In this document: positions 6,466 through 9,289 of the stretch, one piece after another | Layout: each line of letters begins with the position of its first letter | How positions within the stretch are numbered: position 1 is the stretch's first letter | NCBI GenBank assembly: GCA_964620915.1 | Contig: CAZUKP010000045.1 | Location: forward strand, 237 to 24,236 | DNA from: an uncultured Hyphomicrobium sp. | GTDB lineage: Bacteria > Pseudomonadota > Alphaproteobacteria > Rhizobiales > Hyphomicrobiaceae | Direction: 5' to 3' | Length of the DNA stretch: 24,000 bases | Program-made: the position numbers and the translations under genes | The notes under the pieces: model-generated | What the model was told of the DNA's origin: nothing | Database searches by the model: none | The model's input: the letters and a program-made list of their open reading frames with translations, nothing else

Positions 6466-6477
<12 letters not shown>

Positions 6478-7044
6478 TTAGCAGTGATCATCACTAGCTA
6501 TGTCGCGCTTTGGTCATACCTCTGGTTCACCCGGGACAGACATCTCGATAGGCTGTCGCCTCGGGAGGAGCTCAAACGCTACTTCAATCTACTGTTCTTC
6601 ATCCTGGTCTATGTCTTCTCGGTCTACTTCGCGGCGAGCTTCTTCGCCGAGCAGGATGCGGCGTGGCATCAGACTGTGGTCCGCGATACGAGCTTCACTC
6701 CAAGCCACATCGTGCTCTTCTATGGAACGATGCCGCTCTACGTGTTGTTCGGCGTTGGCTCCTTCTTGTACGGGATGACGAGAATTCCAGCGTTTGCCAA
6801 GAATATCTCTATTCCTTTCCTGGTCGCCGTCGTTGGCCCTTTCTTGATCCTGCCGAACCTCGGGTACAACGAATGGGCCCATGCGTTCTGGCAGATCGAG
6901 GAGGTCTTCTCGGCGCCTGTACACTGGGGCTTTGTCATAATGGGCTGGAGCGTGCTCGGTCTGGGCGGTCTTTTGGTGCAGATCGTTCAGGGCACACTCA
7001 GTGCGATGAGGCGGGTGGACGGCGAGTCGCACGCACGAGCTTAG
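6466..7044 (+). CDS. amoC: Copper membrane monooxygenase subunit C (AmoC/PmoC family), N-terminally truncated; about 70-80 residues and the first two TM helices are missing
   Basis: Similarity to AmoC/PmoC begins at about [38 protein letters not shown], which corresponds to about residue 75-95 of full-length proteins. It continues through [28 protein letters not shown] and [22 protein letters not shown]. The Asp/His/His metal ligands are conserved (D at 6655-6657, H at 6667-6669, H at 6706-6708). The ORF-track portion 6091-6465 is antisense to the aldehyde dehydrogenase, not AmoC. The first in-frame ATG inside the homologous part is 6466. Confidence 0.75.
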
Positions 7045-7075
7045 AACCAAAAAACTAAAAAATTCTCGTTCAAGA

Positions 7076-7104
7076 CTCCGCCGGACATGGAATGTCCGGC
7101 GGAG
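7076..7104 (+). promoter_or_regulatory. Perfect 13-bp stem, 3-nt loop hairpin in the amoC-amoA intergenic spacer (probable mRNA processing/stability element)
   Basis: ctccgccggacat (7076-7088) is the exact reverse complement of atgtccggcggag (7092-7104). No T-tract follows. The amoA RBS gggaggaagg lies at 7109-7118. Confidence 0.5.
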
Positions 7105-7123
7105 CACCGGGAGGAAGGTAATC

Positions 7124-7948
7124 ATGCAGAAGTTGGCTGACGCTGAGACCGTGCAAATCTATGGGGTAACGTGGTCTAAGTGGGCTGCGAGCCTATCGCG
7201 CCGATTTGATTTTCTTCTGGCGGTCATAGTTGGTCTGGCCATTATGTCCGCCTTCCACTTACATTTTATGCTTCTAGCCGGCGACTGGGATTTCTGGGTT
7301 GACTGGAAGGACCGACAGTGGTGGCCCACACTCACCCCGATTGTCGCCATCACGTTTCCTGCGGCTGTGCAGTATGTATTCTGGGAGAAATTCAGGCTGC
7401 CGATCGGCGCCACCTTTTCGCTCACGCTCTTGGTTCTGGCCGAATGGGCTTCGAGATATGGCGGATTTAATCTCTGGTCCGACTTCCCGGTGAGCTTGAC
7501 CTGGCCGGCCACGATCATTCCGGGGGCGATCGTTCTTGATTGCGTGCTTCTGCTGACCGGAAACTTCCTCCTGACCGCCATCTTTGGCGGCATGGCATTC
7601 GGCCTGATGTTCTATTCAGGCAACTGGCCGATGCTGGCGGCCTACCGGATCCCCATGGAGGTGATGAACACCATGGTTTCGGTGGGAGACTATATCGGTT
7701 ACGCCTTCCCCCGGACAGCCACGCCCGAGTACGTGAGGCTGATCGAACGCGGGACGCTGCGAACCTTTGGCGGACATTCAGCCTCCATCGCGGCATTCTT
7801 CGCCGGCTTTGCCTGCATCCTGATGTACCTGGTCTGGTGGTACATCGGCTGGTTCTTCGCCAGGCTCATCTGGGTACCCAACAAGCTTGCGACGGCGATG
7901 GGGTTCAAAAAGGAACACCACAAGGCAGATGAGGTGCCGGCGGTCTAG
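7124..7948 (+). CDS. amoA: Copper membrane monooxygenase subunit A (AmoA/PmoA family)
   Basis: 274-aa polytopic membrane protein with [68 protein letters not shown] and WWYIG, hallmark AmoA/PmoA blocks. Strong RBS upstream. Confidence 0.92.
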   Translation: [274 protein letters not shown]

Positions 7949-7957
7949 CGACCAAGG

Positions 7958-9289
7958 GTGGGACACAACGGCGTTAGGGATTGGAACCAGGAAATGGGCA
8001 AGAAAGTCGTTTTCACTATCAGGAAAGTCGGACGGCGAGTGACCCTGTTAGGACTCGCCGGATGGCTCGGGCTTGCGATCACGCTTTGCGGGCTATGCAT
8101 CAGCACGGACGCCTACGCGCATGGTGAGCGCAACCAAGAACCGTTCTTGCGCATGCGAACAGCGCAGTTCTGGGATGTGAAATGGAGTACCGACAAGCTA
8201 GGTGTTAATGACACTCTCACTCTGACTGGGAAGTTCAGGTTGTTCCCTGATTGGCCGAACAACCTTCCTCTGCCTGACTTGGCGTTCCTGGGCAGCGGCA
8301 CGGCCGGTCCGGTTTTGTCGCGGCTCGAGAGCTACATCAATGGTAAGCCGGCGATCCAATCAGGCAAGCTTGAGCTCGGCCGGGATTATGATTTCAAGGT
8401 GGTTTATAAGGGCCGCCAACCCGGCAAGCACCACGTTCACGCGCTGCTGAATGTGGATGGAGCAGGAGCGATCCTTGGCCCAGGAAAATGGGTCGAGGTG
8501 ACGGGAAACCAGGCAGACTTCGTACTTCCTGCGACCACGCTGGACGGCACCCAGATCGCGGATCTGAGTACGTGGGGACTCGGAACCGTCCTCGGATGGC
8601 ACGCGATCTGGATCGTAATCGGGCTTGCGTACATGCTCTGGTACATTTCCAAGCCTATGCTCATACCTCGTTACCTCGTGATTGAGGAGGGCGACCCGGA
8701 TACGCTCATCACGCGTTGGGACCGTATCTGGAGCGCTGGGTTCCTCATTCTTGCAGTTGTCACGGTTATCGTCGGTGTGCAGTGGGCCAATGCGGCCTAT
8801 CCCAGAACCGTCCCTCTGCAGGCAGGCGTCTTCAAAGTCGATCCCTTGCCGGACGAAACAGGTAACATCAAGGTGAATGTGGATCGGGCCGTATACGACG
8901 TTCCCGGACGGTCGATGCGCCTGGATTTAGAAGTGACCAACGATGGGACCGAGCCCCTCCGCCTCGGTGAGTTCACCACTGCGGGGCTTCGTTTCGTAAA
9001 CCAGGCCGTTCCCGAGGCCATCGCCGGCGTTGATGAGGACTATCCGGAGGATCTTGTTGCCCCTGAAGGGCTCAAGGTAGATGACGATAGCCCTATCCAA
9101 CCCGGCGAGACGCGCAAGCTTCACGTCGATGCGACGGACGCAGCGTGGGAGCTCGAACGTCTCACGAGCCTCTTAAATGATCCGGATAACCGGGTCGGTG
9201 GCCTGCTATTCTTCTTCGGTCCAGACGGCGATCGGAAGATAGCGAACGTCTACGGCCCGATCGTGCCGAATTTTACTAAGGCCGAGTAA
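7958..9289 (+). CDS. amoB: Copper membrane monooxygenase subunit B (AmoB/PmoB family)
   Basis: Signal peptide ending DAYA|HGERNQEPFLRMRT, with His at 8120-8122. HxH copper motif GKHHVHALLNV at 8429-8440. Two central TM helices, and a C-terminal cupredoxin-like region YDVPGRSMRLDLEVTNDG, GEFTTAGLRF, GPIVPNFTK. Start is GTG 7958 or ATG 7994 (MGKKVVF); undecided. Confidence 0.92.
   Translation: MGHNGVRDWNQEMGKKVVFTIRKVGRRVTLLGLAGWLGLAITLCGLCISTDAYAHGERNQEPFLRMRTAQFWDVKWSTDKLGVNDTLTLTGKFRLFPDWPNNLPLPDLAFLGSGTAGPVLSRLESYINGKPAIQSGKLELGRDYDFKVVYKGRQPGKHHVHALLNVDGAGAILGPGKWVEVTGNQADFVLPATTLDGTQIADLSTWGLGTVLGWHAIWIVIGLAYMLWYISKPMLIPRYLVIEEGDPDTLITRWDRIWSAGFLILAVVTVIVGVQWANAAYPRTVPLQAGVFKVDPLPDETGNIKVNVDRAVYDVPGRSMRLDLEVTNDGTEPLRLGEFTTAGLRFVNQAVPEAIAGVDEDYPEDLVAPEGLKVDDDSPIQPGETRKLHVDATDAAWELERLTSLLNDPDNRVGGLLFFFGPDGDRKIANVYGPIVPNFTKAE

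What the first reader, a model, noticed from the sequence alone, without database searches (positions are those of the whole stretch)
6466..9289. AMO-like copper membrane monooxygenase (C-A-B) in a heterotroph-like genomic context
All three CuMMO subunits are present in C-A-B order.

By eye, the conserved blocks look closer to betaproteobacterial ammonia monooxygenase than to alphaproteobacterial PmoCAB:
- Subunit A: [21 protein letters not shown] and [14 protein letters not shown], against PmoA-type [20 protein letters not shown].
- Subunit C: [15 protein letters not shown] and NEWAHAFW.
- Subunit B: HGERNQEPFLRMRT, HHVHALLNV, FGEFTTAGLRF and GPIVPNFTK.

Identity is still clearly too low for a canonical nitrifier enzyme. 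The copper ligands are intact: subunit B has the N-terminal His plus HxH, and subunit C has Asp/His/His.

Nothing else in 24 kb suggests a nitrifier or methanotroph. There is no hao, cycAB, mxaF or xoxF. The flanks are serine biosynthesis, trehalose synthesis and an aldehyde dehydrogenase. The substrate (ammonia, methane, C2-C4 alkanes or alkenes) is therefore open. This may be one of the poorly characterised CuMMO lineages found in non-methanotrophic Proteobacteria.
Basis: partly seen in the sequence, partly recalled or inferred. Interest (0 to 1): 0.8.

Follow-up and report, generated by a model that had tools for sequence, protein, structure and literature searches.

The report
Decapitated copper monooxygenase gene cluster
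An uncultured Hyphomicrobiales bacterium carries genes for a copper membrane monooxygenase of an uncharacterised type, probably one that oxidises short-chain hydrocarbons, but a recent deletion of about 7.5 kb has removed the upstream region and the first 78 codons of the C subunit, so this copy is most likely a fresh remnant and not a working ammonia or methane oxidiser.

Summary
The A (7124-7948) and B (7994-9289) subunit genes are real and full length. All quoted motifs and copper ligands are present.

The C gene is not intact. It starts at 6466 on an internal Met and lacks the first 78 of about 271 codons, which encode TM1 and a conserved loop. At base 6465/6466 it abuts, head to head, an acetaldehyde dehydrogenase (ExaC) gene on the other strand that lacks its first 133 codons.

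Three syntenic relatives (79-84% XmoA identity) place 7.5-8.1 kb between these two points. That stretch holds the ExaC 5' end, a PrpE-like CoA ligase, AcuI, a NosP-like sensor, a small ferredoxin, an OmpW-family porin and the xmoC 5' end. An independent Logan assembly reproduces the junction exactly. The ExaC stump has no stops and dN/dS of 0.07, so the deletion is young.

XmoA falls in a 99%-bootstrap clade of uncultured Alphaproteobacteria. This clade sits inside the proteobacterial CuMMOs of unknown or alkane function (Bradyrhizobium 67%, Haliea 62%). Identity to AMO (50-52%), pMMO (49%) and Pxm (48-52%) is lower.

Downstream lie pmoD, an esterase-like gene, copC and a copD-cytochrome c fusion.

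Verdict: a new member of a known kind, broken in this genome.

The parts
4858..5247 (-). DUF779 gene, the usual downstream partner of exaC; intact
   Evidence: Pfam DUF779, E 2.4e-47. Also called on Logan contig L084.
5320..6465 (-). Stump of the acetaldehyde dehydrogenase ExaC gene. It keeps 381 codons plus the stop and lacks the first 133 codons, the start codon and the promoter.
   Evidence: Pfam Aldedh profile positions 142-461 only. The reading frame runs up to 6465. It aligns to L002 644-1789 of a 514-aa ExaC that scores NF050026 937 bits against a 900 cut-off. No stops; dN/dS 0.07 against L002.
6465..6466 (.). Deletion junction. It is blunt, with at most 1-2 nt of microhomology. Relatives carry 7,555 bp (L002) or 8,103 bp (L005) here.
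   Evidence: blastn break points. Base-level view of the junction. L085 homology also starts at 6465. Logan contig L001 spans the junction at 100% identity.
6466..7044 (+). xmoC remnant of 192 codons. It begins at an internal Met, lacks residues 1-78 (cytoplasmic tail, TM1 and a conserved periplasmic loop), and keeps the CuC and CuD ligands.
   Evidence: Pfam AmoC profile positions 62-237 of 245. NCBIfam AmoC_BACT positions 69-244 of 250, 289 bits against a 319 cut-off. Alignment to the 271-aa L002 XmoC. The missing part aligns to AMO C chains in the PDB.
7076..7104 (+). 13-bp stem-loop in the xmoC-xmoA spacer, followed by a strong Shine-Dalgarno sequence (GGGAGGAAGG) for xmoA
   Evidence: RNAfold. 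The same position in L002 and L005 carries a hairpin whose stem changes still pair.
7124..7948 (+). xmoA, 274 aa, intact
   Evidence: Pfam AMO profile positions 6-234 of 238. AmoA_BACT 326.8 bits against a 290 cut-off. Identities and tree.
7994..9289 (+). xmoB, 431 aa (an alternative GTG start lies at 7958), intact, with signal peptide and CuB ligands
   Evidence: Pfam Monooxygenase_B profile positions 1-380 of 380. AmoB_BACT 528.6 bits against a 336 cut-off. Aligned to PmoB H33/H137/H139.
9347..9967 (+). pmoD/xmoD homologue: a periplasmic cupredoxin-like domain with a C-terminal TM helix
   Evidence: PDB 6cpd PmoD, E 1.2e-21. Conserved after xmoB in L002-L028.
9972..10940 (+). Lipoprotein-like member of the esterase / PHB-depolymerase family, conserved in the cluster
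   Evidence: Weak NCBIfam and Pfam hits. Homologues sit next to xmoCABD in L002-L021.
10946..11332 (+). copC
   Evidence: Pfam CopC, E 1.2e-23. NF033814.
11348..13372 (+). Fusion protein: copD, cytochrome c and a thioredoxin-like (AhpC/TSA) domain
   Evidence: Pfam CopD, Cytochrom_C and AhpC-TSA. Conserved in relatives and in Bradyrhizobium niftali.
13426..13902 (+). Conserved secreted protein of unknown family. The mature N-terminus is His and the C-terminal tail is His-rich, so it is a possible copper-handling protein.
   Evidence: No Pfam, NCBIfam or PDB match. Sequence. Homologues in L002-L019.
13951..14358 (+). GFA-family (glutathione-dependent formaldehyde-activating-like) protein
   Evidence: Pfam GFA, E 7e-35. 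Syntenic in L002, L005 and L085.
14396..15328 (+). Alpha/beta hydrolase of the fluoroacetate dehalogenase family
   Evidence: PDB 1y37, 414 bits, E 2.5e-123. Syntenic in L002, L005 and L085.
15413..17493 (.). Hybrid histidine kinase without a sensor domain (15413-16783, +) and a LuxR-type response regulator (16819-17493, -). The NosP-like sensor that accompanies them in relatives lies within the deleted segment.
   Evidence: Pfam. Synteny and the NosP-like hit in L002.

Best explanation
The window holds the 3' two-thirds of a copper membrane monooxygenase island, xmoC'AB-pmoD-esterase-copC-copD::cytc-orf158, followed by GFA, a dehalogenase-family hydrolase and a kinase/regulator pair. The host is an uncultured Hyphomicrobiales bacterium.

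In intact relatives the island starts with DUF779-exaC-prpE-like on one strand. On the other strand it continues acuI-nosP-like-(ferredoxin)-ompW-xmoCABD.

In this genome one illegitimate deletion of about 7.5-8 kb fused codon 134 of exaC head to head to codon 79 of xmoC. It removed the ligase, the reductase, the sensor, the porin, the whole intergenic and promoter region, and the xmoC start codon, ribosome-binding site and first transmembrane helix.

- Shown: the truncations, the break points, the synteny, the clade placement and the intact ligands.
- Inferred: the deletion is recent, because the useless exaC stump is still an open, conservatively evolving frame. This copy is therefore probably no longer expressed as a working enzyme.
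- Inferred: the ancestral enzyme hydroxylates a small hydrophobic C2-C3 substrate (alkane or alkene, possibly halogenated) and not ammonia or methane. The product would be passed on as aldehyde to acid (ExaC) to acyl-CoA (PrpE-like, AcuI).
For: - Truncations: Pfam and NCBIfam profile coverage, translations and alignment to the 271-aa XmoC. The missing XmoC segment is conserved in solved AMO and pMMO C chains.
- Break point: blastn against L002 and L005 and L085, and a base-level view showing at most 1-2 nt of microhomology.
- Junction is real: Logan contig L001 from SRR9700687 is 100% identical over 5923-15340. The identity of the two ExaC halves to relatives is similar.
- Content of the deleted segment. 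No trace of these genes elsewhere in the window.
- Recency: ExaC stump of 381 codons, 0 stops, dN/dS 0.07; xmoC' 0.14; xmoA 0.11; xmoB 0.10.
- Clade: core identities and NJ tree with 99% bootstrap for the 5-member clade, outside AMO, pMMO and Pxm.
- Accessory genes: PmoD, CopC and CopD, conserved in beta and gamma relatives and in B. niftali.
- Island, not housekeeping neighbourhood: serA in Methyloceanibacter caenitepidi and Hyphomicrobium denitrificans has no exaC, prpE, acuI or xmo next to it.
- Literature: CuMMOs of unknown function in Bradyrhizobium and Solimonas (PMC6215863); in Polaromonas and Rhodoferax (PMC8630023).
Against: - Both assemblies derive from one read set, and I could not inspect reads or coverage.
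- xmoA, xmoB, pmoD and copCD are all intact with low dN/dS. This also fits continued use, for example transcription from an internal promoter plus an XmoC supplied by another operon. A relative carries a second xmoCABD about 24 kb away (L022).
- The truncated XmoC keeps all six metal ligands. Because its first remaining helix is followed by a positively charged loop, it could still insert in the native orientation.
- The substrate inference rests on gene neighbourhood in only three related contigs. More distant clade members lack exaC, prpE and acuI within 10 kb.
- No alcohol dehydrogenase is present in the island.
- Deep nodes of the NJ tree are weakly supported (9-62%).
Confidence: 0.7

Rival explanations
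1. Assembly artefact. The real genome has an intact exaC...xmoCAB region, and the junction at 6465/6466 is a mis-join or a chimeric read.
For: The source is evidently a metagenome or mixed sample. The Logan assembly is fragmented, with a break inside exaC at 5398-5923. Only one read set (SRR9700687) is known to carry this sequence. JGI metagenome contig scans found no second copy of the junction or of xmoA.
Against: - Two assemblies give the identical junction.
- The two sides share at most 1-2 nt. By my understanding of how de Bruijn assemblers work, such a join needs reads that contain the junction.
- The Logan contig does not branch at 6465.
- The change is a simple co-linear deletion that keeps orientation and flanking synteny on both sides.
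Confidence: 0.08
2. Still functional. xmoAB-pmoD-copCD are expressed from an internal or fortuitous promoter. They work either with the N-terminally shortened XmoC or with an XmoC encoded elsewhere in the genome.
For: - xmoA and xmoB and the accessory genes are full length with dN/dS about 0.1.
- All Cu ligands of B and of the C remnant are retained.
- A conserved hairpin and a strong SD precede xmoA.
- One sigma-70-like site lies at 6332-6360, upstream of the ATG at 6466.
- A relative has a second xmoCABD operon (L022).
- Extra unlinked amoC/pmoC copies are known in nitrifiers and methanotrophs (from my own knowledge).
Against: - The same low dN/dS and open frame are seen in the exaC stump, which cannot be functional. 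Intactness here therefore only shows recency.
- The promoter-like hit is within chance expectation (1 found, 1.8 expected).
- There is no SD before 6466.
- The lost TM1 and loop are conserved from AMO to pMMO.
- The paralogous XmoC in the relative is only about 56% identical.
Confidence: 0.15
3. A true ammonia monooxygenase in a heterotrophic Alphaproteobacterium, that is, a new kind of nitrifier (ancestrally, before the deletion).
For: - NCBIfam AmoA_BACT (326.8 against 290) and AmoB_BACT (528.6 against 336) pass their equivalog cut-offs.
- AMO chains are the best PDB hits for A and C.
- Motifs are shared with beta-AOB AmoA and AmoC, including Ser in RDTSF.
- The cluster layout xmoCAB-D-copCD resembles the amoCAB(ED)-copCD layout of beta-AOB (from my own knowledge).
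Against: - XmoA is only 50-52% identical to AMO, against 60-84% to non-AMO CuMMOs, and it sits outside the AMO clade.
- RDTSF is shared by Cycloclasticus and the whole unknown/alkane group.
- There is no hao or cycAB in the window or in the 20-kb loci of relatives.
- Neighbours in relatives are carbon-compound enzymes.
Confidence: 0.04

Closest known systems
Proteobacterial CuMMOs of unknown or alkane function: xmoCAB(D) of Bradyrhizobium (B. niftali here; Bradyrhizobium sp. ERR11 in PMC6215863), Solimonas aquatica, and Rhodoferax/Polaromonas (Rochman et al. 2020, ISME J 14:714, recalled from memory because the paper is not held)
   Same: - C-A-B-D order followed by copC and a copD-cytochrome c fusion.
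- XmoA is 66-68% identical to B. niftali and to Rhodocyclales and Betaproteobacteria MAGs, and groups with them (62% bootstrap).
- Ser in the RDTSF site of XmoC.
- The host is neither a nitrifier nor a methanotroph.
   Different: - A distinct 99%-supported alphaproteobacterial (Hyphomicrobiales) sub-clade.
- It is chromosomal and syntenic among relatives, whereas in B. niftali the cluster is cargo of a conjugative element.
- Relatives add exaC, prpE-like, acuI, nosP-like, ompW, GFA and a dehalogenase-family hydrolase.
- This copy is 5'-truncated.
- I could not confirm that the beta MAGs found here are the lineages Rochman et al. studied.
Ethylene/ethane-associated CuMMOs: Haliea sp. ETY-M and Methylococcaceae ET-HIRO PmoA2
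   Same: XmoA core identity 62% and 60%. Same broad part of the tree, away from AMO, pMMO and Pxm.
   Different: Separate clades with weak deep support. They come from marine Gammaproteobacteria. Their neighbourhoods were not examined here.
Betaproteobacterial ammonia monooxygenase AmoCAB (PDB 9pxf, 9cl6, 9leg)
   Same: Best PDB hits for A and C. Shared motifs [26 protein letters not shown] and RDTSFTPSH. NCBIfam AMO models pass for A and B. pmoD/amoD-like and copCD genes lie downstream.
   Different: 50-52% XmoA identity, outside the AMO clade. No hao or cycAB nearby. XmoB is closer to M. capsulatus PmoB (393 bits) than to AmoB (353-367 bits).
Particulate methane monooxygenase PmoCAB (M. capsulatus Bath, Methylocystis, Methylosinus)
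   Same: Same fold families. CuB, CuC and CuD ligands are conserved. PmoD homologue present.
   Different: 49% XmoA identity to Bath. The alpha-pMMOs are the weakest PDB hits for A and B (237-250 and 331-343 bits). XmoC has Ser where pMMO has Asp (RDTDF). PmoB H48 is Gln here. No methanol dehydrogenase genes in the window.
Pxm (pxmABC) of methanotrophs
   Same: 48-52% XmoA identity, similar to AMO and pMMO.
   Different: Gene order is A-B-C in Pxm loci and C-A-B here. Separate clade.

Membership tests
Copper membrane monooxygenase (CuMMO, XmoCAB) | A subunit: full-length match to the AMO/PmoA family | tested here: met
   Pfam PF02461 profile positions 6-234 of 238, E 5e-94. NF041557 326.8 bits against a 290 cut-off.
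Copper membrane monooxygenase (CuMMO, XmoCAB) | B subunit: full-length match, signal peptide, and CuB ligands (N-terminal His plus HxH) | tested here: met
   PF04744 profile positions 1-380 of 380. H43, H147 and H149 of the 431-aa protein align to PmoB H33, H137 and H139.
Copper membrane monooxygenase (CuMMO, XmoCAB) | C subunit: complete protein of about 250-270 aa with all transmembrane helices | tested here: not met
   Only 192 codons remain. Pfam profile positions 62-237 of 245. NF041641 289 bits against a 319 cut-off, profile positions 69-244 of 250. Residues 1-78, including TM1, are absent.
Copper membrane monooxygenase (CuMMO, XmoCAB) | C subunit metal ligands: CuC Asp/His/His and CuD Asn/His/His | tested here: met
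   EQD..WH..PSH and NEWAH..PVH are present in the remnant and match the AMO and relative sequences. Residue numbering is from the literature.
Copper membrane monooxygenase (CuMMO, XmoCAB) | An expressible operon: promoter and translation start upstream of xmoC | tested here: not met
   The upstream region is replaced by the antisense strand of the exaC stump. There is no SD before 6466. The single promoter-like hit is within chance expectation.
Bacterial ammonia monooxygenase (nitrifier AMO) | Placement inside a beta-AOB, gamma-AOB or comammox AmoA clade | tested here: not met
   50-52% identity to three solved beta-AOB AmoA chains. The NJ tree puts it elsewhere. Gamma-AOB and comammox references were not available to me.
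Bacterial ammonia monooxygenase (nitrifier AMO) | NCBIfam equivalog models AmoA_BACT and AmoB_BACT score above their cut-offs | tested here: met
   326.8 against 290 and 528.6 against 336. I judge these models over-inclusive, given the tree.
Bacterial ammonia monooxygenase (nitrifier AMO) | Hydroxylamine oxidation genes (hao, cycAB) in the genome | not testable with these tools
   None in the 24-kb window or in the 20-kb loci of relatives. The rest of the genome is not available.
Particulate methane monooxygenase (pMMO) | Placement inside an alpha or gamma PmoA clade, and Asp in the XmoC RDT[D]F site | tested here: not met
   49% identity to Bath PmoA, in a separate clade. Ser is present instead of Asp.
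Short-chain hydrocarbon CuMMOs of Proteobacteria (xmoCABD type) | Phylogenetic grouping with the Bradyrhizobium, beta-MAG, Haliea and ET-HIRO sequences | tested here: inconclusive
   Highest identities are to this group (60-72%). It groups with Bradyrhizobium and the beta MAGs at 62% bootstrap. Deeper nodes have 9-54% support.
Short-chain hydrocarbon CuMMOs of Proteobacteria (xmoCABD type) | A pmoD/xmoD gene directly after xmoB | tested here: met
   The protein from 9347-9967 matches PDB 6cpd PmoD, E 1.2e-21.
Short-chain hydrocarbon CuMMOs of Proteobacteria (xmoCABD type) | Oxidation of C2-C4 alkanes or alkenes, not methane or ammonia | not testable with these tools
   Only neighbourhood hints exist: ExaC, a PrpE-like ligase, AcuI and an OmpW-family porin in relatives.

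The most novel reading that the evidence does not exclude
The decapitated operon still makes an active enzyme. Either XmoA and XmoB assemble with an XmoC that lacks its first transmembrane helix but keeps every CuC and CuD ligand, or they borrow an XmoC from a second operon. The first option would be a natural 'minimal C subunit' experiment on where CuMMO catalysis resides. A milder version: the intact island of this Hyphomicrobiales clade is a new C2-C3 (possibly unsaturated or halogenated) hydrocarbon pathway that links a CuMMO to ExaC, PrpE/AcuI and a fluoroacetate-dehalogenase-type hydrolase under a NosP-type sensor.
Probability: 0.1. Interest if true: 0.75.

Novelty: new member of a known kind. 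Interest (0 to 1): 0.4.

Why it matters
- Annotation pipelines would call the A and B genes 'bacterial ammonia monooxygenase' because the NCBIfam cut-offs are passed. Marker-gene surveys would count xmoA as amoA-like or pmoA-like. Here the phylogeny, the neighbours and the truncated C gene all argue against nitrification or methanotrophy, so this is a concrete caution for functional inference from amoA/pmoA hits.
- The comparison defines a small Hyphomicrobiales CuMMO clade (two MAGs and one contig from what appears, by isolate labels and sample accessions, to be the Microflora Danica series, plus JGI contigs). Its conserved island makes a testable substrate prediction for a CuMMO group still listed as 'unknown function'.
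- It also catches the loss of such an island at an early stage. This fits the view that these operons are gained and lost as units.

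Tried and rejected
- Relative-rate tests for relaxed constraint on xmoCAB in the window lineage. xmoA and xmoB show an excess of window-specific changes only with two beta outgroups. The 'sister' test failed because, for most genes, L085 is closer to L002 than the window is. I treat the result as inconclusive.
- Exact scans of JGI metagenome contigs for the junction and for the xmoA 5' end found nothing, so there is no third assembly.
- Searching papers for SRR9700687, Methyloligellaceae+CuMMO and Microflora Danica+CuMMO returned no papers. The methanotroph preprint from the Microflora Danica project (10.64898/2026.02.02.703227) describes Rhodomicrobium 'HYP' pMMO, and nothing ties that lineage to this one. 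Rochman et al. 2020 is not held.
- A Rhodomicrobium or canonical methylotroph host is rejected. The best named SerA hits are only 63-67% identical.
- Zn-alcohol dehydrogenase as the identity of the 328-aa gene in relatives is rejected. It is an AcuI acrylyl-CoA reductase equivalog.
- A second CuMMO copy inside the window is rejected. None is present, although a homologue of ORF 2213-2842 lies next to copy 2 in the relative.
- Rfam and tRNA scans of the window were empty.

Full report
**What is at the coordinates**

The window carries three co-directional ORFs that match the CuMMO subunit families.
- 6466-7044 matches AmoC (E 4e-76).
- 7124-7948 matches AMO/PmoA (E 5e-94, profile positions 6-234 of 238).
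- 7958/7994-9289 matches Monooxygenase_B (E 4.5e-145, profile positions 1-380 of 380).

The copper ligands are present.
- The mature N-terminal His of XmoB (AYA|HGE) and its HVH motif align to H33, H137 and H139 of M. capsulatus PmoB.
- The XmoC remnant keeps EQD..WH..PSH and NEWAH..PVH. In literature numbering these are D156/H160/H173 and N227/H231/H245.

**The C gene is not whole**

- The Pfam match starts at profile position 62 of 245.
- The NCBIfam AmoC_BACT match starts at position 69 of 250 and scores 289 bits, below the 319 cut-off.
- Against the 271-aa XmoC of the closest genome-resolved relative, the window protein begins at residue 79, at an internal Met.
- The lost part holds the cytoplasmic tail, the first predicted transmembrane helix and the loop FAFTAGLDSTLPEFDTYWMNL. 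This part aligns to solved AMO C chains, so it is a conserved part of the family.

Immediately to the left, on the minus strand, the 'aldehyde dehydrogenase' is also a stump. Its Pfam Aldedh match covers only profile positions 142-461, and its frame runs up to base 6465. Two 5'-truncated genes therefore meet head to head at 6465/6466.

**Comparison with relatives shows a deletion**

The nearest relatives are the following.
- Two MAGs of uncultured Alphaproteobacteria: L002/L004 (MFD04944.bin.1.97) and L005 (MFD02416.bin.1.3), with 79% XmoA identity.
- One ENA contig, L085, carrying the closest XmoA (84% in the core).

They are syntenic with the window from serA to the response regulator.

Window homology to L002 stops at L002 position 1789 (in exaC) and resumes at 9345 (in xmoC), a gap of 7,555 bp. 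The same holds for L005, with a gap of 8,103 bp. For L085 the homology also starts exactly at window base 6465. At base level the junction is blunt, with at most 1-2 nt of ambiguity and no repeat or mobile-element scar.

The segment present in the relatives encodes the following.
- The first 133 codons of an ExaC acetaldehyde dehydrogenase (NF050026, 937 bits against a 900 cut-off).
- A propionate/acetate-CoA ligase-like enzyme (PrpE model, 730 bits, below its cut-off).
- An AcuI acrylyl-CoA reductase (514 bits against 440).
- A NosP-like FIST sensor (387 bits, below its cut-off).
- A small Fer4_19 protein.
- An OmpW-family outer-membrane protein.
- The xmoC 5' end.

None of these genes is found elsewhere in the window.

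**Is the junction real?**

A Logan contig assembled independently from run SRR9700687 (L001, 9,418 bp) is 100% identical to window 5923-15340. It crosses the junction with 543 bp of exaC on its left. A second Logan contig (L084) matches 1571-5398.

The two sides share almost no sequence, so a k-mer graph assembler could join them only if reads contain the junction. This step rests on my knowledge of the method. The contig also does not branch there.

The two halves of the exaC stump are similarly related to the relatives (80-84% nucleotide identity), so there is no sign of a chimeric join. I could not examine reads, and both assemblies come from one read set. I therefore leave about 8% for an artefact.

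**Age and consequence of the deletion**

The exaC stump cannot be functional, because it has no start codon, no N-terminal third and no promoter. Yet it is an open frame of 381 codons, 88% identical to the L002 protein, with dN/dS 0.07. That is the lowest value in the region. The deletion is therefore young relative to the divergence from the relatives (dS above 1).

It follows that the intactness of xmoA, xmoB, pmoD and copCD (dN/dS 0.10-0.18) cannot be taken as evidence of continued function.

Upstream of 6466 there is no Shine-Dalgarno sequence. There is one sigma-70-like match, no more than chance gives. Relative-rate tests for relaxed constraint were inconclusive.

My reading is that this copy is a fresh remnant. 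A rival reading, at about 15%, is that xmoAB are still used with a truncated or trans-encoded XmoC. The relative MFD04944 does carry a second xmoCABD about 24 kb away (L022), but its XmoC is only 56% identical.

**Which CuMMO is it?**

XmoA core identity (225 aligned residues):

| Compared with | Identity |
|---|---|
| The four nearest sequences | 80-84% |
| Unnamed metagenome sequences and beta/gamma MAGs | 66-72% |
| Bradyrhizobium niftali | 67% |
| Haliea ETY-M | 62% |
| ET-HIRO PmoA2 | 60% |
| Cycloclasticus | 52-54% |
| Three solved beta-AOB AmoA chains | 50-52% |
| M. capsulatus PmoA | 49% |
| Pxm | 48-52% |

In a bootstrapped NJ tree the window sits in a 99%-supported clade of five. This clade lies within a 62%-supported group that includes Bradyrhizobium and the Rhodocyclales and Betaproteobacteria MAGs. 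It lies outside AMO, pMMO and Pxm. Deeper nodes are weak.

PDB bit scores:
- A: AMO 266-277, Bath 258, alpha pMMOs 237-250.
- B: Bath 393, AMO 353-367, alpha pMMOs 331-343.
- C (L002 used as proxy): AMO 251-257, alpha pMMOs 234-242, Bath 238-239.

NCBIfam's AmoA_BACT and AmoB_BACT equivalogs pass their cut-offs, so automatic annotation will say 'ammonia monooxygenase'.

The XmoC site that is Asp in pMMO (RDTDF) is Ser here. It is also Ser in AMO, and in the whole unknown/alkane group including Cycloclasticus. This is probably the HmoC151 site discussed in PMC8630023; that mapping is my inference. The site does not discriminate ammonia from hydrocarbon oxidisers.

**Host**

SerA finds Hyphomicrobium spp. 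at 64-67% and Methyloceanibacter at 63-64% as the best named hits. The host is therefore an uncultured Hyphomicrobiales lineage without a close cultured relative. It is not a known nitrifier or methanotroph.

The rest of the window holds:
- a HAD phosphatase, serA and DUF779;
- a sensor-less hybrid kinase and a LuxR-type regulator;
- treY, malQ and treZ.

There are no hao, cycAB, mxaF or xoxF genes, and no RNA genes.

**The module and how it most likely worked before the deletion**

Downstream of xmoB lie:
- a PmoD homologue (PDB 6cpd, E 1e-21);
- an esterase-family lipoprotein;
- CopC;
- a CopD-cytochrome c-thioredoxin-like fusion;
- a secreted His-rich protein of unknown family.

This set is conserved next to xmoCAB in beta and gamma MAGs. 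A reduced version without the esterase-like gene occurs in B. niftali, where the cassette rides on a conjugative element.

The genes specific to the alphaproteobacterial sub-clade are exaC-DUF779, the PrpE-like ligase, AcuI, the NosP-like sensor and OmpW upstream, and GFA, a fluoroacetate-dehalogenase-family hydrolase (PDB 1y37, 414 bits) and the kinase/regulator pair downstream. They are not neighbours of serA in Methyloceanibacter caenitepidi or Hyphomicrobium denitrificans. They therefore belong with the island and are not part of the local housekeeping context.

From the known roles of these families (my own knowledge), the simplest scheme is as follows.
1. A small hydrophobic substrate enters, possibly through the OmpW-type channel.
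2. The CuMMO hydroxylates it.
3. The alcohol is oxidised by an enzyme encoded elsewhere.
4. ExaC oxidises the aldehyde.
5. The acid is activated by the PrpE-like ligase.
6. AcuI handles acrylyl-CoA if the substrate is unsaturated C3.
7. The NosP-like sensor, kinase and LuxR-type regulator control expression.

This part is inference from three contigs and is the weakest link. I put about 50% on a C2-C3 hydrocarbon substrate and under 5% on ammonia as the physiological substrate.

**Comparison with what is known**

CuMMO operons of unknown function in Bradyrhizobium and Solimonas were noted in 2018 (PMC6215863). Those of Polaromonas, Rhodoferax, Solimonas and Rhodomicrobium are listed as unknown in PMC8630023. 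Rochman et al. 2020 linked the betaproteobacterial xmoCABD to ethane and propane; I recall this from memory because the paper is not held.

The window adds a Hyphomicrobiales sub-clade with its own neighbourhood, and a naturally truncated copy. It is a new member of a known kind. The copy in this window is probably not a working enzyme.

**Scores**

Interest is 0.4. The lineage and its island are moderately interesting and make a substrate prediction testable. The specific locus is damaged, and nothing here overturns current understanding. The most novel reading not excluded is a still-active enzyme with an XmoC lacking TM1, or a new CuMMO-linked C2-C3 or halo-hydrocarbon pathway. I give it about 10%, with interest 0.75 if true.

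Noticed in passing
window 7076-7104; L002 about 9950-9982; L005 same position: A 13-14 bp GC-rich hairpin sits in the xmoC-xmoA spacer of the window and both MAG relatives. The stem differences still pair: CGGACAT/ATGTCCG against CGGGCAG/CTGTCCG. A different hairpin followed by a T-run occupies the same place in the Rhodocyclales MAG L007. It may be an mRNA processing, stability or attenuation element that sets C:AB stoichiometry.
   Followed up: partly
window 13426-13902: A conserved secreted 158-aa protein with no Pfam, NCBIfam or PDB match. After the signal peptide the mature N-terminus is His (AWS|HSDEFF), and the C-terminus is HGDGHGHHDHDSH. Homologues follow copD in alpha, beta and gamma CuMMO clusters and in B. 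niftali. It is a candidate periplasmic copper-handling protein.
   Followed up: partly
window 11348-13372: CopD is fused to a cytochrome c domain and a thioredoxin-like (AhpC/TSA) domain in a single 674-aa protein. The fusion is conserved across the clade; the B. niftali protein shows CopD plus cytochrome c.
   Followed up: no
window 14396-15328 and 13951-14358: A close homologue of fluoroacetate dehalogenase (PDB 1y37, E 2.5e-123) and a GFA-family protein are conserved just downstream of the CuMMO cluster in the window, L002, L005 and L085. Together with ExaC they would fit handling of halo-acetaldehyde or halo-acetate from a halogenated C2 substrate. This is pure speculation.
   Followed up: partly
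L002 5745-6881 (deleted in the window); window 15413-17493: Relatives encode a NosP-like FIST sensor upstream of xmoC, and a sensor-less hybrid kinase plus LuxR-type regulator downstream. The deletion removed the sensor and left the kinase/regulator pair orphaned in the window.
   Followed up: no
L088/L089 (Bradyrhizobium niftali, GCA_044909595.1, JBIYER010000001.1 848293-869150): The xmoCAB-orf155-copC-copD::cytc-orf cassette of B. niftali lies between relaxase/TraG genes and Trb/VirB type IV secretion genes, next to an IS66 transposase fragment. It is therefore cargo of an integrative conjugative element in a cultured strain that could be tested directly.
   Followed up: partly
L022 (CAWDMD010000007.1 351940-372686): The relative MFD04944 has a second, divergent xmoCABD (59% XmoA identity to the window) about 24 kb from the first. 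It is nearly identical to one in a Methyloceanibacter MAG (L020). A homologue of window ORF 2213-2842 lies 2 kb from that second copy, but the window has no second copy within its first 2.2 kb.
   Followed up: partly
window 7124-9289: The NCBIfam equivalog models AmoA_BACT and AmoB_BACT score this non-nitrifier CuMMO above their trusted cut-offs. RefSeq-style annotation will therefore name it 'bacterial ammonia monooxygenase'. A Rhizobiaceae MAG protein (P0082) already carries that name.
   Followed up: yes
window 18000-24000 compared with 1-18000: G+C rises from about 56-60% to 62-64% over the treY-malQ-treZ block. In L085 the genes after the response regulator are different (HMA, MerT), so the right-hand synteny ends at about 17.5 kb.
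   Followed up: no
window 1518-4555: In Methyloceanibacter and Hyphomicrobium the HAD phosphatase follows serA in the same orientation. In the window it is on the opposite strand, separated from serA by an unknown 209-aa secreted protein. This is a local rearrangement.
   Followed up: no
L085 3715-6748: The closest relative's xmoC and xmoB are split into several short gene calls. This is probably due to frameshift errors in that assembly and not to real decay, so it was used only for break-point and synteny evidence.
   Followed up: no
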